Shown: positions 3,786 through 16,745 of the stretch, in pieces
Numbering within the stretch: position 1 is the stretch's first letter
Layout of the letters: each line of letters opens with the position of its first letter
From: a virus
Taxonomy: Duplodnaviria > Caudoviricetes
Direction: 5' to 3' (one strand)
Length of the DNA stretch: 64,000 nt
IMG/VR virus record: IMGVR_UViG_3300020576_002828
Coordinates: 3,017 to 67,016 of that record
Position numbers and translations under genes: made by a program
The notes under the pieces: model-generated
The model's input: the letters and a program-made list of their open reading frames with translations, nothing else
Told to the model about the DNA's origin: nothing
The model's database searches: none

Positions 3786-4018
3786 TGGACACCTTTCGTA
3801 TTACCTTCCGGCCTACGTTCAATTCCCCTCGTCAGACTCGCACAGTTGACGCTGAAACACTTCAATCAGCGGTGGCTATGCTTGGTCCTGTCTGGGGAAT
3901 TCAATCGTGGGAGATTCGCTGTCAGCACACCAACAAGAATTCCACCATGCAGTGCTCCCGATACTCGTCAACAAATATTTGCAATTTCCATCAACGAGTA
4001 TTGACAGCGAGTAAATAA
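3782..4018 (+). CDS. hypothetical protein
   Basis: start overlaps upstream stop. Confidence 0.55.
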   Translation: MMDTFRITFRPTFNSPRQTRTVDAETLQSAVAMLGPVWGIQSWEIRCQHTNKNSTMQCSRYSSTNICNFHQRVLTASK

Positions 4019-5062: not shown

Positions 5063-5079
5063 TCCCATAAATACCGAAA

Positions 5080-5106
5080 CGCCCCTTGACATTGAGCCAA
5101 GGGGCG
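5080..5106 (-). terminator. hairpin CGCCCCTTG-N9-CAAGGGGCG
   Basis: 9-bp stem followed by TTTC on minus strand. Confidence 0.65.
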
Positions 5107-5156
5107 TTTACGGTTATTGCAGATTTTTGATAAGATATCTGCAAACTTATTGGCGT

Positions 5157-5411
5157 TTAGTCAGCCACAACCGAATTCGACTTCGGCTTGTTCGTGCTGC
5201 CGACCGGACGGCCACGGCCACGCTTACCCGCTTCGATCATGAACTTGGTTGACTTGGCACTCGGACGGCCACGCGGTGTGGTGATGGTGATCAAATCATC
5301 GGGAATGTTGCGCAGCGTGGCACGAACTTCCTTGAGCTTCGCCAATTCCGTTTCCTTCGTCGCGATGGCGGAATCAAGCGTATTGCGCACGTTCTGGACA
5401 GATGCAGACAT
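5157..5411 (-). CDS. coiled-coil + AT-hook DNA-binding protein (paralog 1)
   Basis: PRGRP and RGRGRPVGSTNKPK motifs, N-terminal heptad helix. Confidence 0.8.
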   Translation of the reverse strand: MSASVQNVRNTLDSAIATKETELAKLKEVRATLRNIPDDLITITTPRGRPSAKSTKFMIEAGKRGRGRPVGSTNKPKSNSVVAD

Positions 5412-5483
5412 GGTAGTTTCCTATGGTGTGTCAGGTGTTTTGGTTGCTCGGACATCGCGTTGTGCGTCTGCCCTACACAACTA

Positions 5484-5511
5484 AATCTAATCGGCCAATA
5501 TCCAATGTCAA
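5484..5511 (-). promoter_or_regulatory. promoter TTGACA-N16-TAGATT of AT-hook gene 1
   Basis: same hexamers and spacing as 13934-13961. Confidence 0.6.
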
Positions 5512-5644
5512 CAGGAAATAGGCCATTTCGTAAAGAAATTTCGTGTTTTCTTTTGCGCGTTCGTAAGTTGTTGATGTGTATACACTTAGCCCCTAAATCG
5601 CGGCGTCATTCTCACAAAGCTGCTCTAATTGACGCGTTTAGACG

Positions 5645-5672
5645 TTGACTATTGGGCCATAATGTGTATATT
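5645..5672 (+). promoter_or_regulatory. promoter TTGACT-N16-TATATT heading MRxQ cluster 1
   Basis: 32 nt upstream of first MRTQ ORF. Confidence 0.65.
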
Positions 5673-5704
5673 AAAGCATACCCTTTCACCCGTCACCCGA
5701 TATC

Positions 5705-5869
5705 ATGCGAACTCAGCATAAGATCAAGTTGGGCACCACATCACCCACCGGATATACCCGTTTGTTCAATAGTATGTATACCCGATATCACGTGTTATCC
5801 CGTATGGTATTCTGGCGGTTGGATATCCTGTATCGTCGCATACTCCATACCGACTTCATGGTCAAATGA
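5705..5869 (+). CDS. MRxQ micro-protein (MRTQ, 54 aa)
   Basis: hand-translated; first gene after promoter. Confidence 0.8.
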   Translation: MRTQHKIKLGTTSPTGYTRLFNSMYTRYHVLSRMVFWRLDILYRRILHTDFMVK

Positions 5870-6045
5870 GATACCAACGGCAGCATACCTTCGCCTACTT
5901 TGAGCACCCGTTTGATATAGTCGCGTCCAAACCCATGCTGATGAATTTCTGGCAGTTCAACGTAGTGATTAACGCCACCTTTTATGATCTGTTAGAGGCC
6001 ATGCAGTACAATAGCGTCCAACATTACTGGGTAGTCGGTCCATGA
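5866..6045 (+). CDS. MRxQ micro-protein (MRYQ, 59 aa)
   Basis: ATGA overlap. Confidence 0.8.
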   Translation: MRYQRQHTFAYFEHPFDIVASKPMLMNFWQFNVVINATFYDLLEAMQYNSVQHYWVVGP

Positions 6046-6227
6046 GATACCAAGAGAATATCACGTTACCCCCCAGTAGCACCATAGTACAGGCCATTAT
6101 GTGGTATTATAGTAATGGTAAACGGTATATGTATGATCTGTACGTCGGTCCACAAACCACTCTACATATAGCGATATTCATTACCTTTGTAAGTAAGGCA
6201 TACCTCCGGCCCTATAGCGGATCATAG
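6042..6227 (+). CDS. MRxQ micro-protein (MRYQ, 61 aa)
   Basis: ATGA overlap. Confidence 0.8.
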   Translation: MRYQENITLPPSSTIVQAIMWYYSNGKRYMYDLYVGPQTTLHIAIFITFVSKAYLRPYSGS

Positions 6228-6421
6228 TAGTAGGCAATACCCATAGTAGTCGATTTCGCATAGTAGATATCGCCTATATCGCATAGTGGCCGATCATAGT
6301 AGCCAATATATGCATAGTAGGGGATCATAGTAGTCGTTCTTGCCATAGTAGACCGATCATAGTAGCTTTACCATAGGCTATCTGTCATAGTGGCAACAAC
6401 ATAACACCCTTTTCATAGTGG
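6223..6421. repeat. CATAGT(A/G)G short-repeat tract, 11 copies
   Basis: copies at 6223, 6242, 6259, 6282, 6295, 6313, 6326, 6344, 6358, 6386, 6414. Confidence 0.9.
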
Positions 6422-6435
6422 GCGGATCATAGGCC

Positions 6436-6621
6436 ATGCGTAGTCAAGTAAACATAGAAGACGATATCATTACTACTCAGTATATTCTTCGTAGTCGCAT
6501 CATGAAGAATAGATTCTGTAACGCGATACGAATTGATTTGTTGCATACACTTAACGGTTTGGATATCAGCCTTGAAGATATCCTTGATACCATAAGCGAA
6601 GAACATAGGCACCATGCGTAG
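6436..6621 (+). CDS. MRxQ micro-protein (MRSQ, 61 aa)
   Basis: ends HA*, 8-nt overlap with next. Confidence 0.8.
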   Translation: MRSQVNIEDDIITTQYILRSRIMKNRFCNAIRIDLLHTLNGLDISLEDILDTISEEHRHHA

Positions 6622-6781
6622 TCAAGAGATCATAGCGATGCGATATACCGTAGAGCCTACCATAACACGGGCATGTCAAGATAGATCGCGTTTTCTATTT
6701 ATACATACCCCGTGGATAGATGATCAAAATACACTACATAGGATGGCACGCGATCTTGTATGGATTGTATATGGCCTATAG
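6614..6781 (+). CDS. MRxQ micro-protein (MRSQ, 55 aa)
   Basis: paralog of 6812-6982. Confidence 0.8.
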   Translation: MRSQEIIAMRYTVEPTITRACQDRSRFLFIHTPWIDDQNTLHRMARDLVWIVYGL

Positions 6782-6811
6782 TGGCATCTTCATAGTGGAG
6801 GCATCATAGCC

Positions 6812-6982
6812 ATGCGTAGTCAGGTTAGCATAGCGATCTACCCATACACAGGGATGAAACTATCAGGACTGTGTATGGGTAGATCGCCTTTTTTATTTAT
6901 GCATATCCCATGGATAGATCCTGATGATAGTCTATATTGGGTAGCACGAGGTCTAGAATGGGATATAGAGATGTCGTCATAG
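6812..6982 (+). CDS. MRxQ micro-protein (MRSQ, 56 aa)
   Basis: GGAGG RBS; paralog of 6614-6781. Confidence 0.8.
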   Translation: MRSQVSIAIYPYTGMKLSGLCMGRSPFLFMHIPWIDPDDSLYWVARGLEWDIEMSS

Positions 6983-7069
6983 TGTCATCTTCATAGCCAT
7001 TTTTACCGTAGTTGGAAGCCCATAGTGGCAACATCATAGCGCCATCTTCATAGTGAGGGCATCATACCC

Positions 7070-7264
7070 ATGCGGCAACAACACGATATTGGCTACCCAA
7101 CATGTTTTACGCAACATATTTGGAATCTGGCGTCTAAACATCCAGATTTCCATGGGTCAGCCTTCCAGAAATTATACAATCAACGACACATTAATGATCT
7201 GTTTGACCGTATAAACATCCCCATCAACGTCATCCATACTATTGATGATGCGATCTCCCTTTAA
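7070..7264 (+). CDS. MRxQ micro-protein (MRQQ, 64 aa)
   Basis: GAGG RBS. Confidence 0.8.
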   Translation: MRQQHDIGYPTCFTQHIWNLASKHPDFHGSAFQKLYNQRHINDLFDRINIPINVIHTIDDAISL

Positions 7265-7358
7265 GGATGGGGATGGTGAGGCATGGTCGCAAGTAACAAT
7301 CCAAAGAAGATCACACATAATACAATAGGCATACCCATACTCCATAAAAAGGGAATGC

Positions 7359-7544
7359 CTATAAATAGTATTTTTTACTCATAATAACACGGGAAATACC
7401 CACATGCATCTCCCACATGATATTAAACCGTACAGTGGGGCGATGCTGTCGTATGGTCCGTCGTGTGATCAACTTAATACTCTTATACAGCATATCTTCG
7501 AAAAGGTCACCAATAGCGAACGGATATGTGATCTGTTTACGCAT
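7359..7544 (-). CDS. MRxQ micro-protein (MRKQ, 61 aa)
   Basis: ATGCGTAA overlap. Confidence 0.8.
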   Translation of the reverse strand: MRKQITYPFAIGDLFEDMLYKSIKLITRRTIRQHRPTVRFNIMWEMHVGISRVIMSKKYYL

Positions 7545-7704
7545 GAGAGTATGGAATACCGGTAACGAGTCGCAACATCATCAATGCATCCAGCGTATCT
7601 GACCATAAGACTCGCTTTTTATCTGCCTCTGAAATCGAATAATATATCACGTTCTCATATCCATTCCCAACTCCGATCTTCTTACTGACATATTGTTTAC
7701 GCAT
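7537..7704 (-). CDS. MRxQ micro-protein (MRKQ, 55 aa)
   Basis: ATGCGTAA overlap. Confidence 0.8.
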   Translation of the reverse strand: MRKQYVSKKIGVGNGYENVIYYSISEADKKRVLWSDTLDALMMLRLVTGIPYSHA

Positions 7705-7879
7705 GATAGGGTGTCTCCGAATAGTCACGTCCATATACCGTACGTCGATCTACATGACCGAATACCTTATTTGCTATTATGCGATGAACCGATTGTTGTA
7801 AGACCGTGAGTGAAATGAAAAGACGTCCCTCAACGTCCCCATATATCCCTAAGTCTTTATTATATCGCTGTTTACGCAT
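7697..7879 (-). CDS. MRxQ micro-protein (MRKQ, 60 aa)
   Basis: paralog of 8207-8389. Confidence 0.8.
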   Translation of the reverse strand: MRKQRYNKDLGIYGDVEGRLFISLTVLQQSVHRIIANKVFGHVDRRTVYGRDYSETPYHA

Positions 7880-8036
7880 GAGTAATACACCAGCGGTAGA
7901 TAGTTTCGTTGGCATTCCCACTCATTAAGTTAAACCGCATAAACGGGATAGACAAGACATCCGCTACCTGATGCCAGATTTCATGTTCTTGAGGCGACAT
8001 GAACTGATGCACCATACGGAATCGCTGTTTACGCAT
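7872..8036 (-). CDS. MRxQ micro-protein (MRKQ, 54 aa)
   Basis: ATGCGTAA overlap. Confidence 0.8.
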   Translation of the reverse strand: MRKQRFRMVHQFMSPQEHEIWHQVADVLSIPFMRFNLMSGNANETIYRWCITHA

Positions 8037-8214
8037 GCTGACGTTGAACGAGGTATGCGATAGTATACACGTCGAACATAGTATCACGAAGATACCCAAA
8101 CACACGGTCTACGGCACATAATTGCGCTTTCGGTGTTTGGACATTTACACGATGATAGGTGTCTTTTTCGTATCTGGAGAGGATGCCGAGTTTATGGTAT
8201 GCTTGTTTACGCAT
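8029..8214 (-). CDS. MRxQ micro-protein (MRKQ, 61 aa)
   Basis: ATGCGTAA overlap. Confidence 0.8.
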   Translation of the reverse strand: MRKQAYHKLGILSRYEKDTYHRVNVQTPKAQLCAVDRVFGYLRDTMFDVYTIAYLVQRQHA

Positions 8215-8389
8215 TGAAGACGGCCCGTTCATAGCGTCGTCCATATACTATGTGTTGATCTACGTAGCCGAATACGAAATTGGCCATCGTCCGTACATTC
8301 GATGGATTAAATGGGGTGAGCGAACCGAAAATACGATGTTCCATGTCTCCATATATCCCCATTGTGGTGTTCTTATGTTGTTTACGCAT
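8207..8389 (-). CDS. MRxQ micro-protein (MRKQ, 60 aa)
   Basis: paralog of 7697-7879. Confidence 0.8.
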   Translation of the reverse strand: MRKQHKNTTMGIYGDMEHRIFGSLTPFNPSNVRTMANFVFGYVDQHIVYGRRYERAVFNA

Positions 8390-8564
8390 GTTTCCCCATC
8401 GCATGATAGTAATCTCGTCCGTCTGTGGTGGTGAATGCAATTTTTGAATGTACTTCATCTGCCCACTTCCGTAGTTTGCGTTGCGGGTGTGCATGGATTG
8501 ATATAAAAATAGACGCTTCCTTGGGTGAATATATGCCAAATTTGACGAAATACTGTTTCTGCAT
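8382..8564 (-). CDS. MRxQ micro-protein (MQKQ, 60 aa)
   Basis: first gene of cluster; shares GIY and GRxY with neighbours. Confidence 0.8.
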   Translation of the reverse strand: MQKQYFVKFGIYSPKEASIFISIHAHPQRKLRKWADEVHSKIAFTTTDGRDYYHAMGKHA

Positions 8565-8626
8565 ATAGGGGGAGGGGTATCCGCGTGTGGTCTATCTGAG
8601 TGTGACAAAATATTCGGGAAATATAA

Positions 8627-8686
8627 TCGGTCAAAAAGTCCACCGATTCGGTCAAAAAGTCCACCGATTCGGTCAAAAAGTCCACC
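8627..8686. repeat. 21-bp tandem repeat TCGGTCAAAAAGTCCACCGAT x ~2.9
   Basis: exact copies 8627, 8648, 8669 (partial); further TCGGTCAAAA near 8715. Confidence 0.95.
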
Positions 8687-8733
8687 TAAAAACCCCTATT
8701 TTCTGGTATACATCGGTCAAAATGACTGACCTA

Positions 8734-8952
8734 TCAAGTTAGCGTGACACGATGTGGGAGGAAGGAGTCAACATGCGCTCGCACAACACGCGTCACTTCC
8801 ATATACAAGGTATCAGAAAAGACCCCTTGGATCGGGTAATTGCACACGAGGGTGGTACTATCTACGAACACCACATTCACGGCATGGTGGCATCGATGGG
8901 TTTTCTCAAAGGCGTCCATGATACCAAGAAGATGTTGTCGTTGTTTTCTCAT
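8734..8952 (-). CDS. MRxQ micro-protein (MRKQ, 72 aa)
   Basis: ATGA overlap; paralog of 9077-9295. Confidence 0.8.
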   Translation of the reverse strand: MRKQRQHLLGIMDAFEKTHRCHHAVNVVFVDSTTLVCNYPIQGVFSDTLYMEVTRVVRAHVDSFLPHRVTLT

Positions 8953-9080
8953 GAGTGACGTATATACCGATGTACTGCCGCAAAGATTCGAAAGGATTGA
9001 TACAACGTCCACCAGAAAGTATATCCTCTAGGTACTATATACTCAATGGCGTAATACAACACAGGAGTTTGTTTTCTCAT
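8949..9080 (-). CDS. MRxQ micro-protein (MRKQ, 43 aa)
   Basis: ATGA overlaps at both ends. Confidence 0.75.
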   Translation of the reverse strand: MRKQTPVLYYAIEYIVPRGYTFWWTLYQSFRIFAAVHRYIRHS

Positions 9081-9295
9081 GGAAGACCCCCACGCAGTAC
9101 GCCCACGAGGTAGCTACGCATCCCTCGAATCACCCCGGCATATAACTCATCATAAAACGTCATCGGAATAGGGCGTGTACACCGAAGTTGAAAGGTCGCG
9201 ACATTAGAATATGCAACATTCACGCTGTGCCGAAGCCGATGCTGCCATTCCATGTATTCCATAAAGCCCATCTGATGTGCGGATTGTTTTCTCAT
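9077..9295 (-). CDS. MRxQ micro-protein (MRKQ, 72 aa)
   Basis: paralog of 8734-8952. Confidence 0.8.
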   Translation of the reverse strand: MRKQSAHQMGFMEYMEWQHRLRHSVNVAYSNVATFQLRCTRPIPMTFYDELYAGVIRGMRSYLVGVLRGGLP

Positions 9296-9414
9296 GACCG
9301 GAGGGTGGTATGGAGTGCGAGTTGGAGTATAAGACAAATATACTCCAAATGGTTCCGTGTACAGAAGAACGGTGTCGGCAATAATGGGATATGGCGGATG
9401 GTCTGGTAGGTCAT
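9292..9414 (-). CDS. MRxQ-family micro-protein (MTYQ, 40 aa)
   Basis: ATGA overlaps at both ends. Confidence 0.7.
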   Translation of the reverse strand: MTYQTIRHIPLLPTPFFCTRNHLEYICLILQLALHTTLRS

Positions 9415-9587
9415 GGTAGTACTAATCCCTTCCACAGCGCATGTTGCAGGGTAGGAAAGAAATATGGACCAAGTCGCCAACTCCGAGATAGCCGGTCCCA
9501 GAGCTTCCGATGCCATGAAGTAGACGTAATCTCATCACCAGACAGGAAGAACACCACATACCGAGGGTGATACTTCTGTTTTCTCAT
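9411..9587 (-). CDS. MRxQ micro-protein (MRKQ, 58 aa)
   Basis: ATGA overlaps. Confidence 0.8.
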   Translation of the reverse strand: MRKQKYHPRYVVFFLSGDEITSTSWHRKLWDRLSRSWRLGPYFFPTLQHALWKGLVLP

Positions 9588-9748
9588 GAGCGGATCACCC
9601 CGAACAGCCGGTGATTTTCTGAAAAGAGCAAGAAGGTGGGATGGGTATAATGTAACCTATACCATAGATGGGTCAACCCATTTGGTGTGAGTGTGACCGC
9701 ACGATGAAAGCGATAAGGATGATGGATGGCGAGGGTTTGGTGTCTCAT
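9584..9748 (-). CDS. MRxQ micro-protein (MRHQTLAI, 54 aa)
   Basis: ATGA overlaps. Confidence 0.8.
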   Translation of the reverse strand: MRHQTLAIHHPYRFHRAVTLTPNGLTHLWYRLHYTHPTFLLFSENHRLFGVIRS

Positions 9749-9909
9749 GAAAAAATATCGTAGATGGCCCACCGCAGATCGGTTATATAGGTATCACTCT
9801 GTTGCAATACACTAGAAAAACAGATCTTATTCCAGACATTGCGGTGAAACTGCGTCGGGGAGATGATCGCAAATGTACTATGACGGATGGCAAGGGTTTG
9901 GTGTCTCAT
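9745..9909 (-). CDS. MRxQ micro-protein (MRHQTLAI, 54 aa)
   Basis: ATGA overlaps. Confidence 0.8.
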   Translation of the reverse strand: MRHQTLAIRHSTFAIISPTQFHRNVWNKICFSSVLQQSDTYITDLRWAIYDIFS

Positions 9910-10070
9910 GAGCCTATAGGTCGCTGCATCCCATACATGACAGTCCGATGGGTACCGAACCATAATTGATAAAAGATCTTATCCCAGATCAGACGATGAT
10001 ATGACGTAGGGGTGATCTGAGCACAATCTGTTAAGGTACGACGACGGATAGTAAGGGTTTGCCGTCTCAT
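9906..10070 (-). CDS. MRxQ micro-protein (MRRQTLTI, 54 aa)
   Basis: ATGA overlap downstream. Confidence 0.8.
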   Translation of the reverse strand: MRRQTLTIRRRTLTDCAQITPTSYHRLIWDKIFYQLWFGTHRTVMYGMQRPIGS

Positions 10071-10178
10071 GATAAAAGAGGGGTGGTGATCCGAGTAATC
10101 AGCCGCCAGAGTTCCCATTTTTGCATGGTTGCATCTGACCGGTTCCACTTCTGATAAAAGAACCGTTTACGATCTCAT
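10067..10178 (-). pseudogene. broken array unit (ATG AGA TCG TAA at junction; orphan open frame)
   Basis: junction ATG followed by TAA at the Gln4 position; frame of the upstream gene stays open past its TGA to the next ATGA junction. Confidence 0.55.
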
Positions 10179-10336
10179 TTGGGGAAGACCGTCCAATAAA
10201 AATCGACAAAGATCCGAAACTGAGGAACTTTCAGTTGGAACGCGTATCGGACGTATGGGTTATCGTCGGGGAGTATCGGAAGGTATGGAGATATCATACA
10301 CCGTCTAATCCATGGATTTTGGGTTTGTCGTCTCAT
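10175..10336 (-). CDS. MRxQ micro-protein (MRRQ, 53 aa)
   Basis: ATGA overlap. Confidence 0.75.
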   Translation of the reverse strand: MRRQTQNPWIRRCMISPYLPILPDDNPYVRYAFQLKVPQFRIFVDFYWTVFPK

Positions 10337-10485
10337 AGGACAAAGACATAGTTATGGACGCTCCATCGAAACATAACGATCTCTGTAAAGAAACGCAAAT
10401 ACGCCGGATAGTATGCAGACCACACGGCTGGAAACTTGGTGGTGGTAGGTAGGGACCGGTCGAAACAGATGCGTTGCTGTCTCAT
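10333..10485 (-). CDS. MRxQ micro-protein (MRQQ, 50 aa)
   Basis: ATGA overlaps. Confidence 0.8.
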   Translation of the reverse strand: MRQQRICFDRSLPTTTKFPAVWSAYYPAYLRFFTEIVMFRWSVHNYVFVL

Positions 10486-10646
10486 GTGAAGAACAACGTA
10501 TGTGTGATACCGTCACGAGCCATCACCGTAATCGTCATAAGGCGTCTATATATTGCGAATCGACGTTGATGATGTTGCACCAACTGAGAGAGGGTTTGGT
10601 TCAGGTGGGTATACATCAAATATCGACGATTGGTTTGCTGTCTCAT
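10482..10646 (-). CDS. MRxQ micro-protein (MRQQ, 54 aa)
   Basis: ATGA overlaps. Confidence 0.8.
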   Translation of the reverse strand: MRQQTNRRYLMYTHLNQTLSQLVQHHQRRFAIYRRLMTITVMARDGITHTLFFT

Positions 10647-10810
10647 CGGTTGTGTAGATCGACAATATGACTCCACAATATCTCAAACCGTAACACCGCA
10701 AAAAATCTCCATAGCAGGTTATTGGTGGTATACCGGTAAAATGCGGAGTTTTCTGGTATGTCGGCGATGAGATGTTGCCGACGACTGATGGCAAGCGTTT
10801 GGTGTCTCAT
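10643..10810 (-). CDS. MRxQ micro-protein (MRHQTLAI, 55 aa)
   Basis: ATGA overlaps. Confidence 0.8.
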   Translation of the reverse strand: MRHQTLAISRRQHLIADIPENSAFYRYTTNNLLWRFFAVLRFEILWSHIVDLHNR

Positions 10811-10959
10811 GAGAAGTGACGAACTTGAATGATCCACCACAAGATATTCCGAAGCCCACTGAATTGCCCGATGATATTGGGGGTAGTGAGATTGAACCAC
10901 CAATAAAACTCGTTGGGGTGGTGTCGGGCGTTAAGAATATTGAAACGTTGATGTCTCAT
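10807..10959 (-). CDS. MRxQ micro-protein (MRHQ, 50 aa)
   Basis: ATGA overlaps. Confidence 0.8.
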   Translation of the reverse strand: MRHQRFNILNARHHPNEFYWWFNLTTPNIIGQFSGLRNILWWIIQVRHFS

Positions 10960-11120
10960 CGGAATGTACTCTTAGCAACGAACTGACCAGACTCTTTGAC
11001 ATACCATATGAGAAGTTTAACCCGAAAGAGGGCATGGCATAATGTCTGGTACATATACCACTGAGGGGTAGACGCGGTGTTACAGTAGCCGACTTCAATC
11101 CGAAGAGTCTGCTGTCTCAT
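10956..11120 (-). CDS. MRxQ micro-protein (MRQQ, 54 aa)
   Basis: ATGA overlaps. Confidence 0.8.
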   Translation of the reverse strand: MRQQTLRIEVGYCNTASTPQWYMYQTLCHALFRVKLLIWYVKESGQFVAKSTFR

Positions 11121-11269
11121 GGTCGTCGGATAACGCGTCGGAGGGTGACCCGCATTCGCCACTGTTGCATGATGCCGGGATGATACCAATCCCCGATCAC
11201 ATCATAGAACGGTATCCAGACGATGCCGGTGAGAATCGGTTTGAGGGTGTAAAGCTGTTGTAGACGCAT
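11117..11269 (-). CDS. MRxQ micro-protein (MRLQ, 50 aa)
   Basis: start lies inside upstream ORF whose junction stop is lost. Confidence 0.75.
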   Translation of the reverse strand: MRLQQLYTLKPILTGIVWIPFYDVIGDWYHPGIMQQWRMRVTLRRVIRRP

Positions 11270-11423
11270 TAGTAATACTAACCCACCCCGCATCCCATCG
11301 CAAGGCACCCATGAGTTGACCGATGGGAGTTGTGTATACGATTCGTGCGTAATTAACAATATGTTCTAATATACCATCGGTTTCGAAATGCGTCCGAATT
11401 GGACATCGATGTTGGTGTCTCAT
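11202..11423 (-). CDS. MRxQ micro-protein (MRHQ, 73 aa, C-terminally extended)
   Basis: reads through junction ...TNA-S. Confidence 0.75.
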   Translation of the reverse strand: MRHQHRCPIRTHFETDGILEHIVNYARIVYTTPIGQLMGALRWDAGWVSITNASTTALHPQTDSHRHRLDTVL

Positions 11424-11593
11424 GAAAATAGTTCGACAAACATACTTCCACAGATATCATTAATCTCGTCTGGGCGGAATGCGTTATAAATGTGACTGCG
11501 TATCTCGGAGGGGACCGACAGCCAAATCGCATCCCAGTTGGCATACATCGGTTTATGGCGAAGCGCGGTATATAGAGAGCGTTGCTGTCTCAT
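11420..11593 (-). CDS. MRxQ micro-protein (MRQQ, 57 aa)
   Basis: ATGA overlaps. Confidence 0.8.
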   Translation of the reverse strand: MRQQRSLYTALRHKPMYANWDAIWLSVPSEIRSHIYNAFRPDEINDICGSMFVELFS

Positions 11594-11778
11594 GGGCGGC
11601 GTACTATAGTATCTGTGATGGCGCGAGAGACATCAACTCGCACAACGGACTTCACACTTTTGAGTGCCAACAGCGGATTGGTGATGGTATATACGTCAGA
11701 GCGCCAACCGATGGTGGTCTTCCGGTGTATGCTCACCCAGTTAGGACGGTATACCTGCACATAATGTTGGTGTCTCAT
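11590..11778 (-). CDS. MRxQ micro-protein (MRHQ, 62 aa)
   Basis: ATGA overlaps. Confidence 0.8.
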   Translation of the reverse strand: MRHQHYVQVYRPNWVSIHRKTTIGWRSDVYTITNPLLALKSVKSVVRVDVSRAITDTIVRRP

Positions 11779-11954
11779 AGTTCGATCCATATACGCATCG
11801 CAGCGCCCATAGAATGTATTGAGATACGTTTAAACGCAAACAGTGGTTCTAGTATGACGTACATATCATATCGTATTGAACTATGGGTGGCACATCGAAT
11901 GCAATCCCATATTGATTCGGTTGTGTATACGCTAATTCGACGTTGGTGTCTCAT
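11775..11954 (-). CDS. MRxQ micro-protein (MRHQ, 59 aa)
   Basis: ATGA overlaps. Confidence 0.8.
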   Translation of the reverse strand: MRHQRRISVYTTESIWDCIRCATHSSIRYDMYVILEPLFAFKRISIHSMGAAMRIWIEL

Positions 11955-12112
11955 CGATGCACACTCTGCCATAGTGCTGCCGTGACCCCTACTTCCACAA
12001 GATCATCCGTCGTACGATAGATGGCTACGCGCACTTCCAGTTCACTATAGGCTTTTATCTGTCGCCATAATGAAGGAGATGCACCCACTGAACTGATCGA
12101 TTGGCGTCTCAT
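11951..12112 (-). CDS. MRxQ micro-protein (MRRQ, 53 aa)
   Basis: ATGA overlaps. Confidence 0.8.
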   Translation of the reverse strand: MRRQSISSVGASPSLWRQIKAYSELEVRVAIYRTTDDLVEVGVTAALWQSVHR

Positions 12113-12258
12113 CGGAAAATACGCTCCCATGAAATATTATCGTGGGATAAATCGGGTATGCGGATGATGGGCTGACGCATAATGACCTTCCAGTATCGAA
12201 TGCGAAGATGCACTAGATAATACTGTCGTACGGTGCGAATACACGATTGATGTCTCAT
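12109..12258 (-). CDS. MRxQ micro-protein (MRHQ, 49 aa)
   Basis: ATGA overlaps. Confidence 0.8.
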   Translation of the reverse strand: MRHQSCIRTVRQYYLVHLRIRYWKVIMRQPIIRIPDLSHDNISWERIFR

Positions 12259-12431
12259 GTGGACGGGCGATGAGTATAGGTCTGTAACGTAAAGATGATG
12301 GTGATAATCGATCCACATGTGCGTTGAACGCCAACGGCGATGCGGTGGGCGACATATGTATCGACAGGAATCATCTCACGACAGTGTAATTCTGTCCAGA
12401 GGATGGTGCGGTTGACGGGTTGGCGTCTCAT
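12255..12431 (-). CDS. MRxQ micro-protein (MRRQ, 58 aa)
   Basis: ATGA overlaps. Confidence 0.8.
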   Translation of the reverse strand: MRRQPVNRTILWTELHCREMIPVDTYVAHRIAVGVQRTCGSIITIIFTLQTYTHRPST

Positions 12432-12619
12432 TTAGACCACCACCGGTATAGGGACGTGAGCTTCCCACGGAGCGTATTGATGTGTATCTGGATCGGATGC
12501 TGCACACCATAGTATGCACGGTTACGTAATCGGTAAGCAACCCGACGAGACACCGGCATCATACTATCGCGGTAAATGTTGATGAAGATGTCTTCCCAGA
12601 CGTTGTGTTGTTTGCGCAT
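12428..12619 (-). CDS. MRxQ micro-protein (MRKQ, 63 aa)
   Basis: 28-nt gap upstream, ATGA overlap downstream. Confidence 0.8.
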   Translation of the reverse strand: MRKQHNVWEDIFINIYRDSMMPVSRRVAYRLRNRAYYGVQHPIQIHINTLRGKLTSLYRWWSK

Positions 12620-12647
12620 CCCTGAAACCTAACCCGTACCCGATGAA

Positions 12648-12842
12648 TCACAAGATGGGAATCGTGATCCGGTGTCTAATCTCGTTGGTGGGTGGGAGGC
12701 GAGTGTGAAAATAACGAGTAATCTTCCGGCGATATACAACTAGTGGATGATTCCATATGGTATACGGAAAATCCACACCAGCATACACTCTACCCCGCAC
12801 CCTACCAGAAACCCGTTCAGACAGATTCTGTTGTTTAGTCAT
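12648..12842 (-). CDS. MRxQ-family micro-protein (MTKQ, 64 aa)
   Basis: ATGACTAA overlap. Confidence 0.75.
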   Translation of the reverse strand: MTKQQNLSERVSGRVRGRVYAGVDFPYTIWNHPLVVYRRKITRYFHTRLPPTNEIRHRITIPIL

Positions 12843-13017
12843 ATGACCCAAAGTGAGCGATCCAGTCAGGTGTTGGATACCGTGAAATGGAAACAATGAA
12901 TACTGCTTTCCACGGATAATTCCACGCGAGACTATATATGTCAGCGTCTCTATTGTATATACGTGCCCGCATCTGATCTTTTATATAACTGATGGGGATA
13001 TTCGTCTGGTTACGCAT
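12835..13017 (-). CDS. MRxQ micro-protein (MRNQ, 60 aa)
   Basis: ATGCGTAA overlap. Confidence 0.8.
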   Translation of the reverse strand: MRNQTNIPISYIKDQMRARIYNRDADIYSLAWNYPWKAVFIVSISRYPTPDWIAHFGSYD

Positions 13018-13189
13018 AATAACGGTACATGAGTTGATAATAACCTCGCACGCGTGTCAACATCAGCGTGATAGGACGTGTCTTGGCATCGACGCGATGA
13101 TCAATAGCTCTGATAAATGGTACCCGACTATCCTTGGTAAACAACGGAATAGCTGGTGTGATGTTACTGATGGCGGTTTGAACGCGCAT
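13010..13189 (-). CDS. MRxQ micro-protein (MRVQ, 59 aa)
   Basis: start inside upstream ORF whose junction stop is lost. Confidence 0.75.
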   Translation of the reverse strand: MRVQTAISNITPAIPLFTKDSRVPFIRAIDHRVDAKTRPITLMLTRVRGYYQLMYRYYA

Positions 13190-13325
13190 AGTCTTCAACG
13201 AGATATCGGAAAATCCAGTACCGATGGGAAAACAGGTTGTTTACCAATGGCTGAGGTACACGGTATTGCACTATTGAAAACAACCGCCGAGTGCTAATAC
13301 CAGACACATACTGTTGGTTACGCAT
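13164..13325 (-). CDS. MRxQ micro-protein (MRNQ, 53 aa)
   Basis: reads through junction ...DYA-R. Confidence 0.75.
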   Translation of the reverse strand: MRNQQYVSGISTRRLFSIVQYRVPQPLVNNLFSHRYWIFRYLVEDYARSNRHQ

Positions 13326-13515
13326 AAAACTTGGCCATCACGTCGATTTTAATGTCCATCAACGATACCACGAAGCGACCGAGTGGCAGCTTTATCTTTA
13401 GTTGTTCCACACCAGCCAAGAATATCGTCACGTCGCGTGGGAATCTGGAATCGGTGATGGAATAGAATGATGGCCGCATCGTTCCTACTGATCGACAGAG
13501 GGCCTGTTTACACAT
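13318..13515 (-). CDS. MRxQ-family micro-protein (MCKQ, 65 aa)
   Basis: ATGTGTAA overlap. Confidence 0.75.
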   Translation of the reverse strand: MCKQALCRSVGTMRPSFYSITDSRFPRDVTIFLAGVEQLKIKLPLGRFVVSLMDIKIDVMAKFYA

Positions 13516-13714
13516 CCGGATCACCCATCCAACTCCAAAAATGAACCCACAGAGGGCGTAGAACCGTATTCCATGTATCATCCCAAATCGGTTCGTCCAC
13601 ATCGGCACTGATTTTACACCATATCAGTTCAGTCGTCTGACTATATGCCCGATCTTGAATAGCGAGAAGGAAACGCGTCGACTGATTAAATTTCCGGAGT
13701 CGTTGGTTACGCAC
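13508..13714 (-). CDS. MRxQ micro-protein (GTG start, RNQ, 68 aa)
   Basis: GTGCGTAA overlap. Confidence 0.75.
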   Translation of the reverse strand: MRNQRLRKFNQSTRFLLAIQDRAYSQTTELIWCKISADVDEPIWDDTWNTVLRPLWVHFWSWMGDPDV

Positions 13715-13913
13715 GAGTAGATATGGGGATGGACCGACAGTATGAAATTAAATCGGCGTCGAAAATATTACTGACGTATAACTGCAGAGAACGATTGGCC
13801 GGGATGCCGAGGCCAGCGATATACCCGATCAAATATGGTGGGGTGATCCATCGCGGCGAAATACCGCATACTACAGTGTTGCGAGGCCGAAACGCGGTTG
13901 TCTGGGTGCGCAT
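13707..13913 (-). CDS. MRxQ micro-protein (MRTQ, 68 aa)
   Basis: first gene after leftward promoter. Confidence 0.8.
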   Translation of the reverse strand: MRTQTTAFRPRNTVVCGISPRWITPPYLIGYIAGLGIPANRSLQLYVSNIFDADLISYCRSIPISTRA

Positions 13914-13933
13914 GGGATGATGGATAGGTGTCC

Positions 13934-13965
13934 TTGACAATACTCCAATACTTCGTAGATTGCAA
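13934..13965. promoter_or_regulatory. overlapping divergent promoters: TTGACA-N16-TAGATT (+) and TTGCAA-N17-TATTGT (-)
   Basis: + hexamers 13934-39 and 13956-61; - hexamers 13965-60 and 13942-37. Confidence 0.65.
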
Positions 13966-14007
13966 GAGTGGACCAGTAGGTGCATTCACCTCTTTCTTTT
14001 TCATACC

Positions 14008-14586
14008 ATGGATACGATCAACGAACTACTCTCTACCGTGGATAAGCAGATTGCCCAAGGCACTGCTGAACTGGCGATACTGAAAACGGCCAAACGCCAG
14101 TTGGACGCCATTCCATCCGATGGACCCGTCCGTGATACCCCGCCCAAGAAACGTGCGGGTCGACCCAAGGGATCGAAGAATCTGACCCCGGCTGAACGTG
14201 TGAATAAGAAAGCGGCCAAGCCATCATCCACGGGGCGTCCAAAGGGTCGACCGAAGGGATCGAAAAATCTGACCCCGGCTGAACGGGAAGCCCGCAAGTT
14301 GGCGAAGAAGGCGGGATCGATGGTGTCAGCCGCTACATCATCGGATGTCGAGTTGGCCGAAGTCAGTGCACCCGTTGAACCGTCGCCCATCATCGATCAG
14401 TCCGCACCGGTAGTAGAATCTGCCGCACCATCCAGCCCATGGTCCCCGCCATCGGATGCCGTGGTTGAAACGCCGTATGCACCGGAAGTGGTCGACGAAG
14501 AAGCCCCGTCTGCCCCTATGTATATGGAACAGCCGACCGCAGGATTCCAGAGCAAGGAAGATCTGTTGAACGCTTCGCAGCAGTAG
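14008..14586 (+). CDS. coiled-coil + AT-hook DNA-binding protein (paralog 2) with Pro/Ala/acidic tail
   Basis: two GRPKGSKNLTPAER repeats plus GRPK; N-terminal helix like 5157-5411. Confidence 0.8.
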   Translation: MDTINELLSTVDKQIAQGTAELAILKTAKRQLDAIPSDGPVRDTPPKKRAGRPKGSKNLTPAERVNKKAAKPSSTGRPKGRPKGSKNLTPAEREARKLAKKAGSMVSAATSSDVELAEVSAPVEPSPIIDQSAPVVESAAPSSPWSPPSDAVVETPYAPEVVDEEAPSAPMYMEQPTAGFQSKEDLLNASQQ

Positions 14587-14599
14587 GGGTCACGTAGAT

Positions 14600-14626
14600 A
14601 TGGGCATGGAGAATAACCGTGCCCAT
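14600..14626 (+). other. hairpin between AT-hook gene and tRNA
   Basis: ATGGGCATGG-N7-CCGTGCCCAT. Confidence 0.5.
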
Positions 14627-14632
14627 TCTATT

Positions 14633-14706
14633 GGTCTGGTAGCTTAGTCGGTTAAAGCGCCTGACTCATAATCAGGGGATCGTGGGTTCAAGTCCCACCC
14701 AGACCA
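14633..14706 (+). tRNA. tRNA-CAU (elongator Met or Ile2), CCA not encoded
   Basis: acceptor GGTCTGG/CCAGACC, anticodon arm CCTGA-CTCATAA-TCAGG, T arm GTGGG-TTCAAGT-CCCAC; G1-C72 excludes initiator. Confidence 0.93.
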
Positions 14707-14709
14707 CTT

Positions 14710-14916
14710 ATGCGCACACAAGAGAATCTCTCATTTAGTGTATCGGTACAACCGAACATCGATATATACCAAGCCTACCGCGTAGCAAGTCGTATTCATC
14801 CGGTCGCAGACGTGGCATATGATACATGCATTTCAACCCGAACAGAAAATAGTAAGCTGTCTCGCTGGACACATGAAGTACGGATAGATCTCAAAGAGGC
14901 GTTGTTCGATGCGTAA
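14710..14916 (+). CDS. MRxQ micro-protein (MRTQ, 68 aa)
   Basis: starts 3 nt after tRNA. Confidence 0.8.
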   Translation: MRTQENLSFSVSVQPNIDIYQAYRVASRIHPVADVAYDTCISTRTENSKLSRWTHEVRIDLKEALFDA

Positions 14917-15094
14917 TCAAAAACTTCAAATATACACCATCGAACTTAGACCCCATAGTATATTGACAGACGCGGTTATGCGTCGTCATCCCGGCTTTTG
15001 GACACGTCTGTATAACCAAGCGCCGATTAAACAGACACCGTGGAAGCATTGGGTGTCGGGTATACCGGGATACGACGGAAGCTTTCATGCGTAA
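14909..15094 (+). CDS. MRxQ micro-protein (MRNQ, 61 aa)
   Basis: ATGCGTAA overlap. Confidence 0.8.
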   Translation: MRNQKLQIYTIELRPHSILTDAVMRRHPGFWTRLYNQAPIKQTPWKHWVSGIPGYDGSFHA

Positions 15095-15263
15095 ACAGAT
15101 CTTACTATCAGACAATATCGACCTAGAACAGCATACACAATTACATCGTACCTTCGGTCGTATCGCATGGCAGCGTGTAGAAAAACATGCCCCATTCCGT
15201 ACACTCAAATGGGCATCAGCCATGATTGTGCCGATACGATTAAAAGTATTTTTTCATGCGTAG
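15087..15263 (+). CDS. MRxQ micro-protein (MRKQ, 58 aa)
   Basis: ATGCGTAA overlap. Confidence 0.8.
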   Translation: MRKQILLSDNIDLEQHTQLHRTFGRIAWQRVEKHAPFRTLKWASAMIVPIRLKVFFHA

Positions 15264-15489
15264 ACAACTCTCACGAATCTATCGTATAGATGTAAAGTTG
15301 CATATAGAGATCATGAATCAATATTACACTCGCGACAAACAACGGTGGGTGTTGGAACGAAGTGTCGTGTATCGTAGTTCTGACATATACGATCATCCAT
15401 CACAGATTGTGATGCATCGTAGTTCTGACATATACGATGCATCACAGATTGTGATGCCAGTATTATTTTATATTCAACGCCATGCGTAA
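15256..15489 (+). CDS. MRxQ micro-protein (MRRQ, 77 aa, internal duplication)
   Basis: ATGCGTAG overlap. Confidence 0.8.
   Translation: MRRQLSRIYRIDVKLHIEIMNQYYTRDKQRWVLERSVVYRSSDIYDHPSQIVMHRSSDIYDASQIVMPVLFYIQRHA
15371..15458 (+). repeat. in-frame ~45-bp tandem duplication
   Basis: ATCGTAGTTCTGACATATACGAT..CATCACAGATTGTGATGC twice. Confidence 0.9.
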
Positions 15490-15679
15490 ACAAGACCTGT
15501 TGAGCAAGGTGTTGGTGAAACAAATAGAATATGACACCCACAATCAGTTATCCTCACGTGCGAGAGTGACAAGGGGATGGTGGTGGAATAGTTATAGCTA
15601 TATATGTCAACCCGAACGTAGGTTGCGTGAAGTAATGGAAGATCTATACGAACGCTTCTTTTTTGACCACGATGCGTGA
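15482..15679 (+). CDS. MRxQ micro-protein (MRKQ, 65 aa)
   Basis: ATGCGTAA overlap. Confidence 0.8.
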   Translation: MRKQDLLSKVLVKQIEYDTHNQLSSRARVTRGWWWNSYSYICQPERRLREVMEDLYERFFFDHDA

Positions 15680-15848
15680 ACAGCGATCCGTTATTCAGCT
15701 TACCCGACTGCTACGAATTCGGTATTATATCCCAACAGTAATGCACTATAAGGGAAGTAAACGGATGTTGCAAAAATATCTACGGGTGGCCGATGTGCTG
15801 CGGAGTTCGAAGTTCTCCATTATAACACACATTATACACGATGTGTAA
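15672..15848 (+). CDS. MRxQ micro-protein (MREQ, 58 aa)
   Basis: ATGCGTGA overlap. Confidence 0.8.
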   Translation: MREQRSVIQLTRLLRIRYYIPTVMHYKGSKRMLQKYLRVADVLRSSKFSIITHIIHDV

Positions 15849-16032
15849 GCAGAGGTCAGTTAAATACCCCGTCGAACACGGAACGCATAATACGTTGATG
15901 ACTGAATATAGTATGCATGATCCAAAACATCGTCTTGAACGTGCGGTGGCGGATCGTATGGAGTATGACGTGCCCGCTGTTAACAACAGTGTGATAGTTA
16001 TGCTCCACTTAGAGGCGTATCCTCTTGCGTGA
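15841..16032 (+). CDS. MRxQ-family micro-protein (MCKQ, 63 aa)
   Basis: ATGTGTAA overlap. Confidence 0.8.
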   Translation: MCKQRSVKYPVEHGTHNTLMTEYSMHDPKHRLERAVADRMEYDVPAVNNSVIVMLHLEAYPLA

Positions 16033-16201
16033 ACAACAGCTACTCACCTATCCCATCGAACACGTTACCCATAGAACGTTGTGTAATATCTATTATACAC
16101 GTGATCCAAAAGCGTTGATAGAATCGTATATACTGACGTACATGGATAACGGGGGAGATTTGCGTTCCCTTGCAGCGATAGCCTTTGATATGGTGAAGTG
16201 A
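16025..16201 (+). CDS. MRxQ micro-protein (TTG start, REQ, 58 aa)
   Basis: TTGCGTGA overlap; homologous to both neighbours. Confidence 0.75.
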   Translation: MREQQLLTYPIEHVTHRTLCNIYYTRDPKALIESYILTYMDNGGDLRSLAAIAFDMVK

Positions 16202-16374
16202 TGCGTAAACAAATACTACTTACACATCCCGTCGTATACAAAACGCACCATATCTTGTATACGGCATATACCAAATGTGATCCGGAATACAAGTTGCGCA
16301 TCTATATGATGACGGATCGAATATTTACAATCGGCAGTGCGATTCATTCGTTTACGAATTTAATCCATGCGTAA
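16201..16374 (+). CDS. MRxQ micro-protein (MRKQ, 57 aa)
   Basis: TGATG overlap. Confidence 0.8.
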   Translation: MRKQILLTHPVVYKTHHILYTAYTKCDPEYKLRIYMMTDRIFTIGSAIHSFTNLIHA

Positions 16375-16552
16375 CCAACACGTTATAACACAAGGGGTGG
16401 ATATCACTCTGCATAACAAAGGGTTTGATGCATTTTGTACTAAATATGAAAACGCATTTATTCTCTTACACCGTTTATACGATCACGACATATATCACTT
16501 GCGAGATACAACCATTGAAGTAGAAGAATTCATATACGACCTCTATGCATAA
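16367..16552 (+). CDS. MRxQ micro-protein (MRNQ, 61 aa)
   Basis: ATGCGTAA overlap. Confidence 0.8.
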   Translation: MRNQHVITQGVDITLHNKGFDAFCTKYENAFILLHRLYDHDIYHLRDTTIEVEEFIYDLYA

Positions 16553-16745
16553 ACAAACATCTCTACAACGTGACGTGGTACTCATGACACATATGAAGCT
16601 ATATGGAAATCATCAAATCTATATGACTCCTGATATGTGGTCATACCTCAAAACTGTGGTCATATCACGTCAACCGGCGCATGCTCTGTTAGGACGGAGT
16701 GAGGTAAAAACACACATATCTGCGCAAGCTCCGTCGCCCATGTAA
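16545..16745 (+). CDS. MRxQ-family micro-protein (MHKQ, 66 aa)
   Basis: ATGCATAA overlap. Confidence 0.75.
   Translation: MHKQTSLQRDVVLMTHMKLYGNHQIYMTPDMWSYLKTVVISRQPAHALLGRSEVKTHISAQAPSPM

What the first reader, a model, noticed from the sequence alone, without database searches (positions are those of the whole stretch)
5157..14586. Two paralogous AT-hook genes each sit head-to-head with an MRxQ cluster
Seen: 5157-5411 (-) and 14008-14586 (+) share an N-terminal helix plus GRP AT-hooks and have the same TTGACA-N16-TAGATT promoter. Each is divergent from a cluster whose first gene starts MRTQ, so they point outwards while the clusters converge at 7265-7358. Established: AT-hooks bind AT-rich minor grooves (HMGA, Lsr2/H-NS-like hooks). 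Inference: one AT-hook+array module duplicated in inverted orientation; the proteins may regulate or compact the array or counter host xenogeneic silencing.
Basis: partly seen in the sequence, partly recalled or inferred. Interest (0 to 1): 0.7.

Follow-up and report, generated by a model that had tools for sequence, protein, structure and literature searches.

The report
Paired phage AT-hook genes flanking micro-gene arrays
An uncultured T4-like phage has two diverged copies of a small early DNA-binding protein (a pairing helix plus AT-hook arms) at the outer edges of an 11-kb block of about 54 chained mini-genes; the layout is real and rare, but no evidence yet shows that these proteins control the block.

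Summary
The genes at 5157-5411(-) and 14008-14586(+) are real paralogs. The N-terminal helix alone aligns at z about 7.8, and profile comparison gives E 4.7e-6. TTGACA-N16-TAGATT occurs only twice in 64 kb, once before each gene. Each gene is divergent from a chain of MRxQ mini-genes whose head gene starts MRTQ.

New points:
- AT-hook2 also appears to head a transcript with a tRNA(CAU) and a third MRTQ-headed chain (cluster C).
- Its promoter overlaps the only plausible cluster B promoter.
- Cluster A instead uses the phage's standard early promoter.
- A/T tracts are not enriched in the arrays.
- Both paralogs recur on one 47-kb relative contig (94% and 79% identity). None of nine array ORFs in the database has a relative at 90% identity or more.

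Best reading: early, dimeric, NAP/HMGA-like AT-hook DNA binders in a T4-type hyperplastic early region, linked to the arrays by transcription layout rather than shown regulation. An inverted duplication of a whole AT-hook-plus-array module is not supported at DNA level.

This scan has noted chained mini-gene arrays and paired AT-hook-like early genes in other marine T4-like phages. None is sequence-related to this one.

The parts
5157..5411 (-). AT-hook1 gene: 84 aa, pI 10.7, N-terminal amphipathic helix plus two RGRP hooks
   Evidence: ORF. Orthologs P0010 and P0011 are 93-94% identical. Heptad a/d hydrophobic occupancy is 0.80, against 0.21 at other positions. Pfam AT_hook scores 13.1 bits, below the 17.4 cutoff.
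5484..5511 (-). AT-hook1 promoter, TTGACA-N16-TAGATT
   Evidence: One of only two matches in the window; also found by the promoter scan.
5077..5109 (-). Strong terminator-like hairpin just after AT-hook1, which makes the gene monocistronic
   Evidence: 14-pair stem followed by a T-rich tail.
5645..5672 (+). Cluster A promoter, TTGACT-N16-TATATT, a member of the phage's standard early promoter family with the conserved leader AAAGCATACCCTTTCAC
   Evidence: family D9, copies at 274, 1525 and 5645; same leader as the promoter at 4001.
5705..7264 (+). Cluster A: 7 chained MRxQ mini-genes; the head gene starts MRTQ
7265..7358 (.). Gap where clusters A and B converge
7359..13913 (-). Cluster B: 36 chained MRxQ mini-genes; the head gene starts MRTQ
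   Evidence: Of the 51 junctions within the three chains, 41 are 4- or 8-nt stop/start overlaps.
13937..13965 (-). Only plausible cluster B promoter, TTGCAA-N17-TATTGT (8 of 12 matches). It occupies the same 30 bp as the AT-hook2 promoter on the other strand.
   Evidence: Read directly. It falls below the threshold of the scan, so it is inferred.
13934..13961 (+). AT-hook2 promoter, TTGACA-N16-TAGATT
14008..14586 (+). AT-hook2 gene: 192 aa. Helix 2-34, hooks at residues 50-55 and 75-84, disordered acidic half (pI 4.05), invariant C-terminal 40 aa.
14600..14626 (+). 10-bp hairpin between AT-hook2 and the tRNA; a weak terminator or a processing site
14633..14707 (+). tRNA with anticodon CAU; not of the initiator type (G1:C72 pair, no GGG/CCC anticodon stem)
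   Evidence: sequence.
14710..16745 (+). Cluster C: 11 chained MRxQ mini-genes; the head gene starts MRTQ. No sigma70-like promoter of its own, so it is probably co-transcribed with AT-hook2 and the tRNA.

Best explanation
The two genes are diverged paralogs of a small early phage DNA-binding protein. Each has a helix of about 33 residues with a heptad pattern, which most likely pairs the protein into dimers and possibly heterodimers. Behind the helix lie two AT-hook-type GRP arms in a disordered basic stretch, which would bind the minor groove of AT-rich DNA. Both genes are read by host RNA polymerase from a shared, slightly weakened sigma70 promoter variant with a TAGATT -10. AT-hook1 is the minimal form and is monocistronic. 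AT-hook2 has added an acidic, disordered tail that ends in an invariant 40-residue motif with a short helix. The tail is likely a partner-binding or self-masking module, as in HMGA. I read both proteins as general nucleoid-associated, architectural proteins used early in infection: for host DNA take-over, for competing with H-NS-like silencers, or for organising phage DNA. They sit in a T4-type hyperplastic early region. Their tie to the MRxQ mini-gene chains is one of transcription layout. The AT-hook2 promoter probably also drives the tRNA(CAU) and cluster C, and it competes sterically with the cluster B promoter. A dedicated array-binding system is not shown. Shown here: paralogy, motifs, promoters, gene order, conservation in relatives. 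Inferred: dimerisation, DNA binding, early timing, co-transcription, promoter competition, biological role.
For: Paralogy. Helix 2-34 is modelled at pLDDT above 90 and the rest is disordered. Heptad a/d hydrophobic occupancy is 0.78-0.80, against 0.21-0.32 elsewhere. GRP cores are read directly; the only PDB sequence hit is the HMG-I/Y AT-hook peptide 2EZD, E 0.26; Pfam AT_hook scores 13.1 bits on AT-hook1. AT-hook2 splits into a basic half (pI 10.7) and an acidic half (pI 4.05). In orthologs of 79-99% overall identity, the helix, the hooks and the last 40 residues are conserved while the middle varies. Both paralogs occur on a contig of 47,015 nt (P0003 and P0011). No sigma70-like site lies on the + strand between 13961 and 16584, and only a weak hairpin precedes the tRNA. 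The T4-like context rests on the ATPase at 288-1370, which matches T4-type phage (Straboviridae) proteins at about 31% identity, and on a repeated early promoter and hairpin family, comparable to the PeSL cassettes of PMC2839356. An oligomerising N-terminus plus an AT-hook-like minor-groove reader is the design of H-NS and Lsr2, and phages are known to encode such homologs (PMC6936261, PMC7074111).
Against: No experiment and no characterised homolog exists. Pfam, PHROGs and NCBIfam give nothing above threshold. The AT-hook2 hooks read AGRPKG and GRPKGRPKG rather than the canonical RGRP. AlphaFold modelled a monomer only, so dimerisation rests on the heptad pattern. Co-transcription with cluster C rests on the absence of a consensus promoter, and a phage-specific middle or late promoter could have been missed. 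The mirrored layout and the MRTQ heads of all three clusters (a chance of about 1 in 24,800 that the three T3 genes are exactly the three heads) suggest a closer link to the arrays than this reading allows.
Confidence: 0.5

Rival explanations
1. Dedicated array regulators. The AT-hook dimers bind at or within the MRxQ clusters and switch, insulate or compact them. The overlapping AT-hook2 and cluster B promoters form a switch, and TAGATT marks autoregulated promoters.
For: The layout is mirrored, with one paralog at each outer edge. The unusual promoter is shared. The AT-hook2 and putative cluster B promoters overlap. All three cluster heads, and only they, start MRTQ. The pair is kept together on the 47-kb relative.
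Against: A/T tracts are at or below expectation in clusters A, B and C and in both intergenic regions. The two promoter regions share nothing beyond the hexamers. Cluster A uses the ordinary early promoter family, 134 bp away from the AT-hook1 promoter. No repeated operator-like motif is common to the three cluster heads.
Confidence: 0.2
2. Evolutionary origin by inverted duplication of one AT-hook-plus-array module, after which the arrays diverged beyond recognition.
For: The AT-hook genes are paralogs with the same promoter variant. Both neighbouring chains start MRTQ and point inward.
Against: There is no detectable similarity between any cluster A gene and any cluster B gene; every significant paralog pair lies within one cluster. 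The head genes share nothing beyond MRTQ. The intergenic regions differ in length and promoter type. Cluster C also has an MRTQ head but lies co-directional with AT-hook2, which a simple mirror duplication does not produce. MRTQ could instead reflect the needs of a chain's first, uncoupled start codon.
Confidence: 0.25
3. There is no functional relation. The AT-hook genes are simply conserved early genes that bound a hyperplastic zone where mini-gene chains expand and turn over.
For: AT-hook1 has relatives at 90% identity or more on two foreign contigs. None of nine array ORFs present in the database has one. One array ORF (P0005) and the cluster C profile found nothing outside this phage. The T4-type hyperplastic-region context applies.
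Against: AT-hook2 appears to share a transcript with cluster C and a promoter region with cluster B. The MRTQ heads sit beside both paralogs.
Confidence: 0.3

Closest known systems
H-NS / Lsr2-type nucleoid-associated xenogeneic silencers and their phage- and plasmid-encoded homologs (PMC6936261, PMC7074111)
   Same: Small proteins with an N-terminal self-association helix and an AT-hook-like arginine/glycine minor-groove reader. Mobile elements carry such proteins to interfere with host silencing.
   Different: There is no folded C-terminal DNA-binding domain. The hooks are true linear GRP motifs in a disordered region. There is no sequence or profile match to the H-NS or Lsr2 families. The gene sits in a lytic T4-like early region, and AT-hook2 has an acidic tail.
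Eukaryotic HMGA (HMG-I/Y), PDB 2EZD/2EZE
   Same: Multiple GRP hooks are separated by short basic linkers and followed by an acidic C-terminal tail (AT-hook2). It is the only PDB sequence hit.
   Different: The hit covers 17 residues at E 0.26, so the resemblance is motif-level only. HMGA has no N-terminal coiled-coil helix. The resemblance is certainly convergent.
PeSL cassettes and hyperplastic regions of T4-type phages (Arbiol et al. 2010, PMC2839356)
   Same: Small nonessential early genes lie behind strong sigma70-like promoters and stem-loops, in a region where relatives differ by whole genes. This window has such a promoter and hairpin repeat family.
   Different: The AT-hook genes use a distinct -10 (TAGATT). 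The chains between them are linked by 4- or 8-nt stop/start overlaps with no Shine-Dalgarno sequence, not by PeSLs.
Pfam DUF5681 / DUF6312 (uncharacterised bacterial and phage proteins containing GRPKGSKN-type stretches)
   Same: The GRPKGSKN hook and the following short helix of AT-hook2 match weakly (18 and 16.5 bits).
   Different: Both scores are below the gathering thresholds (27.5 and 27), and the match covers only the hook region.

Membership tests
AT-hook motif (Pfam PF02178; HMGA type) | Core G-R-P (canonically R-G-R-P) flanked by basic residues | tested here: met
   Read directly. AT-hook1 has PRGRPS (46-51) and GRGRPV (65-70). AT-hook2 has AGRPKG (50-55) and GRPKGRPKG (76-84).
AT-hook motif (Pfam PF02178; HMGA type) | Score above the Pfam gathering threshold | tested here: not met
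   AT-hook1 scores 13.1 bits against a cutoff of 17.4. AT-hook2 has no AT_hook row. The model is only 13 positions long, so this is a weak test.
AT-hook motif (Pfam PF02178; HMGA type) | Binds the minor groove of AT-rich DNA | not testable with these tools
   Needs EMSA or footprinting.
H-NS / Lsr2 xenogeneic silencers | N-terminal dimerisation/oligomerisation domain | tested here: inconclusive
   A single helix (2-34, pLDDT above 90) with a/d hydrophobic occupancy of about 0.8. Self-association was not modelled.
H-NS / Lsr2 xenogeneic silencers | Folded C-terminal DNA-binding domain carrying the Q/RGR loop; family profile match | tested here: not met
   AlphaFold models the hook region as disordered, with short helices only. 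There are no H-NS or Lsr2 hits in Pfam or NCBIfam.
HMGA | Several hooks plus an acidic C-terminal tail, otherwise disordered | tested here: inconclusive
   The architecture is met by AT-hook2 (N-terminal half pI 10.7, C-terminal half pI 4.05). AT-hook1 has no tail. Homology is limited to one hook (E 0.26).
T4-type hyperplastic-region early gene (PeSL context) | Sigma70-like early promoter, stem-loop terminator, small gene, T4-like genome | tested here: met
   Promoters. A terminator follows AT-hook1. Actual early timing is untested.
DUF5681 | Pfam gathering score | tested here: not met
   18 bits against a cutoff of 27.5.

The most novel reading that the evidence does not exclude
The AT-hook pair and the three MRTQ-headed chains form one conserved expression unit. 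The coiled-coil AT-hook dimers, perhaps as AT-hook1/AT-hook2 heterodimers, act as boundary or switch proteins. They set which of the three chains of a fast-evolving library of about 54 mini-proteins is transcribed. The fully overlapping AT-hook2 and cluster B promoters would work as a toggle, and the AT-hook2 tail would recruit a host or phage partner.
Probability: 0.12. Interest if true: 0.75.

Novelty: new variant of a known kind. Interest (0 to 1): 0.5.

Why it matters
Small early phage proteins that reshape or read host and phage DNA are a rich source of host take-over mechanisms. Linear AT-hook proteins with a pairing helix have not, to my knowledge, been characterised in T4-type phages. 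Here they are the conserved landmarks around a very unusual locus: 11 kb of SD-less, chained, lineage-specific mini-genes. If the proteins do act on that locus, they offer an experimental handle on how such gene libraries are expressed. If they do not, they are still a compact, testable candidate for a phage counter-silencing or nucleoid-remodelling factor.

Tried and rejected
- The single metagenome scan was saturated by the degenerate AT-hook peptide pattern. It returned only unrelated AT-hook-bearing genes; for example, L087 is a DNA methyltransferase with C-terminal hooks.
- IMG/VR scans with the AT-hook alignment, with AT-hook1 alone and with the neighbouring GP88 gene found no relative. 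A GTDB scan with the invariant AT-hook2 tail also found none.
- tblastn against GenBank phages found nothing for AT-hook2 or the 899-aa neighbour.
- Three-unit MRxQ DNA patterns give 16 matches in this window against 0 expected. In IMG/VR and GTDB they found only chance hits, simple tandem repeats and a CRISPR array.
- ESM Atlas gave no usable lead.
- SH3/KOW-barrel idea for the mini-genes, a lead from earlier scan notes: the AlphaFold model of the 16201 gene is a two-helix hairpin (pLDDT 76) with no PDB match, so the idea is not supported for that member.
- Non-coding repeat or RNA array: rejected. All 54 frames stay open to the next start, Cys is depleted to 1.0% against 3.1% random, and third codon positions are less conserved than first and second (0.43 vs 0.53 and 0.56). 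Rfam finds only the tRNA.
- T4 late promoter TATAAATA: 7 copies against 4.6 expected, so uninformative.
- Small-terminase reading: no support, since the gene is in an early region and has no family hit.
Full report
**Context.** The window is 64 kb of a single 67,016-nt viral contig (one search states it is a virus record). An ATPase at 288-1370 matches T4-type phage (Straboviridae) proteins at about 31% identity. Other genes include a GP88-family protein, ThyX-like and HNH genes, NAMPT and a long run of glycosyl- and methyltransferases. The left 5 kb holds a repeated early promoter family, TTGAC(A/T)-N16-17-(GTG)TATATT, with hairpins. This is the kind of hyperplastic early region described for T4-type phages (PMC2839356). 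Ordinary genes here have clear GGAG or GAGG ribosome sites.

**Observation.** Both ORFs are present. AT-hook1 (5157-5411, minus strand) has 84 aa and pI 10.7. AT-hook2 (14008-14586, plus strand) has 192 aa.
- BLASTP of the two gives 32% identity over 87 aa, E 4e-6.
- hhalign of their ortholog sets gives 86% probability, E 4.7e-6.
- The first 40 residues alone, which exclude the low-complexity hooks, align without gaps at score 54. Shuffles give 20.6 +/- 4.3, and 0 of 5000 reach 54. The paralogy is therefore not an artefact of the GRP motifs.
- TTGACA-N16-TAGATT occurs only at 5484-5511(-) and 13934-13961(+), against 0.06 expected. Outside the hexamers the two promoter regions do not align.
- No other ORF in the contig carries such hooks.

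**The neighbouring chains.** I count 54 chained ORFs of 43-77 aa that begin M-R-x-Q (a few have Q, T, C or H at residue 2). Cluster A runs 5705-7264(+) with 7 genes. Cluster B runs 13913-7359(-) with 36 genes. Cluster C runs 14710-16745(+) with 11 genes.
- Of the 51 junctions within the chains, 41 are 4-nt (ATGA) or 8-nt (ATGCGTAA-type) stop/start overlaps.
- There is no Shine-Dalgarno signal upstream of the starts.
- The frames are real. All stay open to the next start. Cys is 1.0% against 3.1% expected from base composition. In paralog pairs, third codon positions are less conserved (0.43) than first and second (0.53 and 0.56). Cluster C members share conserved positions beyond MRxQ, for example His16.
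- Otherwise the composition is close to random expectation. The proteins are basic (median pI 9.76) and codon usage is flat.
- Paralog similarity is confined to neighbours within a cluster.
- An AlphaFold model of the 16201 gene is a two-helix hairpin (pLDDT 76.5) with no PDB match.
- The first gene of each of the three clusters, and no other gene, starts MRTQ. Beyond that the three heads are unrelated.

- AT-hook1 is monocistronic, with a strong hairpin terminator at 5109-5077.
- Cluster A has its own standard early promoter at 5645-5672, with the same leader as the promoter at 4001. It lies 134 bp from the AT-hook1 promoter.
- On the other side only 94 bp separate AT-hook2 from cluster B. 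The only plausible leftward promoter is TTGCAA(13965-13960)-N17-TATTGT(13942-13937), 8 of 12 matches. Its -10 overlaps the AT-hook2 -35 and its -35 overlaps the AT-hook2 -10. If it is real, the two promoters exclude one another. This is inference.
- Downstream of AT-hook2 come a 10-bp hairpin with a poor U-run (14600-14626) and a tRNA with anticodon CAU (14633-14707). Cluster C starts 3 nt after the tRNA. No sigma70-like site lies on the plus strand between 13961 and 16584.
- So AT-hook2, the tRNA and cluster C are most simply one transcription unit. AT-hook2 is thus not only head-to-head with a chain but also the leader of another.

**The proteins.** AlphaFold on the four AT-hook2 orthologs gives a confident helix at residues 2-34 (pLDDT 92-96). 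It also gives short helices after each hook, a disordered acidic middle and a short C-terminal helix at 183-190. Heptad a/d positions are 78-80% hydrophobic, against 21-32% elsewhere, in both paralogs. That fits a coiled-coil pairing helix. AT-hook2 is bipartite: residues 1-105 have pI 10.7 and residues 106-192 have pI 4.05. Across orthologs of 79-99% identity the helix, the hooks and the last 40 residues are invariant or nearly so, while the middle varies. Database matches are at motif level only:
- Pfam AT_hook scores 13.1 bits, below the 17.4 cutoff, on AT-hook1.
- DUF5681 and DUF6312 match AT-hook2 below threshold.
- The HMG-I/Y hook peptide 2EZD matches at E 0.26.
- PHROGs and NCBIfam give nothing.

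**Relatives.**
- AT-hook2 has three relatives among 5.8 billion clusters: P0001 (99%, on a 14,230-nt contig), P0002 (84%, NCBI, 1,290 nt) and P0003 (79%, JGI, 47,015 nt).
- The 90%-identity cluster of AT-hook1 holds P0010 (13,107-nt contig) and P0011 (47,015-nt JGI contig). Both paralogs therefore very probably sit on the same 47-kb relative. AT-hook1 is much the more conserved of the two (94% vs 79%).
- Nine array ORFs are in the database, and all are alone in their 90% clusters. P0005 found only itself. A profile of cluster C run against 1.84 billion representatives found only its own members.
- Caveats apply. About half of the array ORFs were never called as genes. Orthologs of 50-65% identity could have been missed.
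- No MRxQ-type array exists in IMG/VR or in the GTDB genomes by a three-unit DNA pattern that hits this window 16 times with none expected.

**Does the AT-hook pair act on the arrays?** Runs of 5, 6 or 8 A/T bases are at or below the iid expectation in clusters A, B and C and in both control regions. They are commoner in the AT-richer late part of the genome. No shared operator-like element was found at the three cluster heads. So nothing in the sequence points to the arrays as a preferred target. The link that can be shown is transcriptional layout.

**Verdict.** The most likely reading (about 0.5) is a pair of early, dimeric, AT-hook DNA-binding proteins of the nucleoid-associated or HMGA-like kind. 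In design they are analogous to H-NS and Lsr2 (PMC6936261, PMC7074111), but they belong to neither family. They are embedded in a hyperplastic early region and coupled to the mini-gene chains by promoter arrangement. The dedicated-regulator idea (about 0.2) and the whole-module inverted duplication idea (about 0.25) remain open but lack positive support. Earlier notes of this scan report chained mini-gene arrays and paired AT-hook-like early genes in other marine T4-like phages. A look-up by sequence found none related to this one.

Noticed in passing
window 5705-16745: About 54 chained mini-genes lack any Shine-Dalgarno signal, whereas ordinary genes of this phage have GGAG or GAGG. Information content is confined to ATG-(C/A)G-N-NAN-CAR. 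In the 8-nt overlap class, codon 3 is forced by the upstream stop (T-AA, T-AG or T-GA), which explains K, N, S, R and E at residue 3.
   Followed up: partly
window 14633-14707 and the arrays: The tRNA(CAU) is not of the initiator type (G1:C72 pair, no GGG/CCC anticodon stem) and could be an Ile2-type AUA reader as in T4. ATA makes up 31% of Ile codons in the arrays, against 5% in the other early genes and 15% in the remaining genes.
   Followed up: partly
window 8627-8689: A perfect 21-bp x3 tandem repeat (TCGGTCAAAAAGTCCACCGAT) lies in a 169-nt non-coding gap of cluster B. Each unit carries TTGACC on the minus strand, and the units form ACCGATCGGT palindromes at their joints. A TTGACC-N16-TATTTT promoter-like site follows at 8634-8607(-). 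This may be an internal, regulated promoter for the last seven genes.
   Followed up: no
window 6223-6430 and 6778-7066: Dense CATAGT(A/G)G repeats, with a 31-bp period in part, fill the 208-nt gap inside cluster A and recur before the ORFs at 6812 and 7070.
   Followed up: no
window 15371-15457: A 45-bp tandem duplication inside the 15256 mini-gene makes it the longest member (77 aa, with the peptide SSDIYD..SQIVM repeated). It contains a 24-nt inverted repeat.
   Followed up: no
window 11202-11423 and 13164-13325: Two chain genes run 68 and 26 nt into the next gene instead of stopping at the usual 4- or 8-nt overlap. They look like stop-loss read-throughs.
   Followed up: no
window 274, 1525, 4001, 4974(-), 5645, 33139(-): An early promoter family, TTGAC(A/T)-N16-17-(G)TGTATATT, is often followed by a leader hairpin (GGGTAT..ATACCC). 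A separate 59-nt repeat ending in CCCCTTGAC occurs at 182, 1460, 4228 and 5032. Both resemble PeSL-like cassettes.
   Followed up: partly
window 14157-14285: The two hook-plus-helix units of AT-hook2 (GRPKGSKNLTPAER) come from a 42-nt direct repeat that is 95% identical at DNA level. This indicates a recent internal duplication or gene conversion.
   Followed up: no
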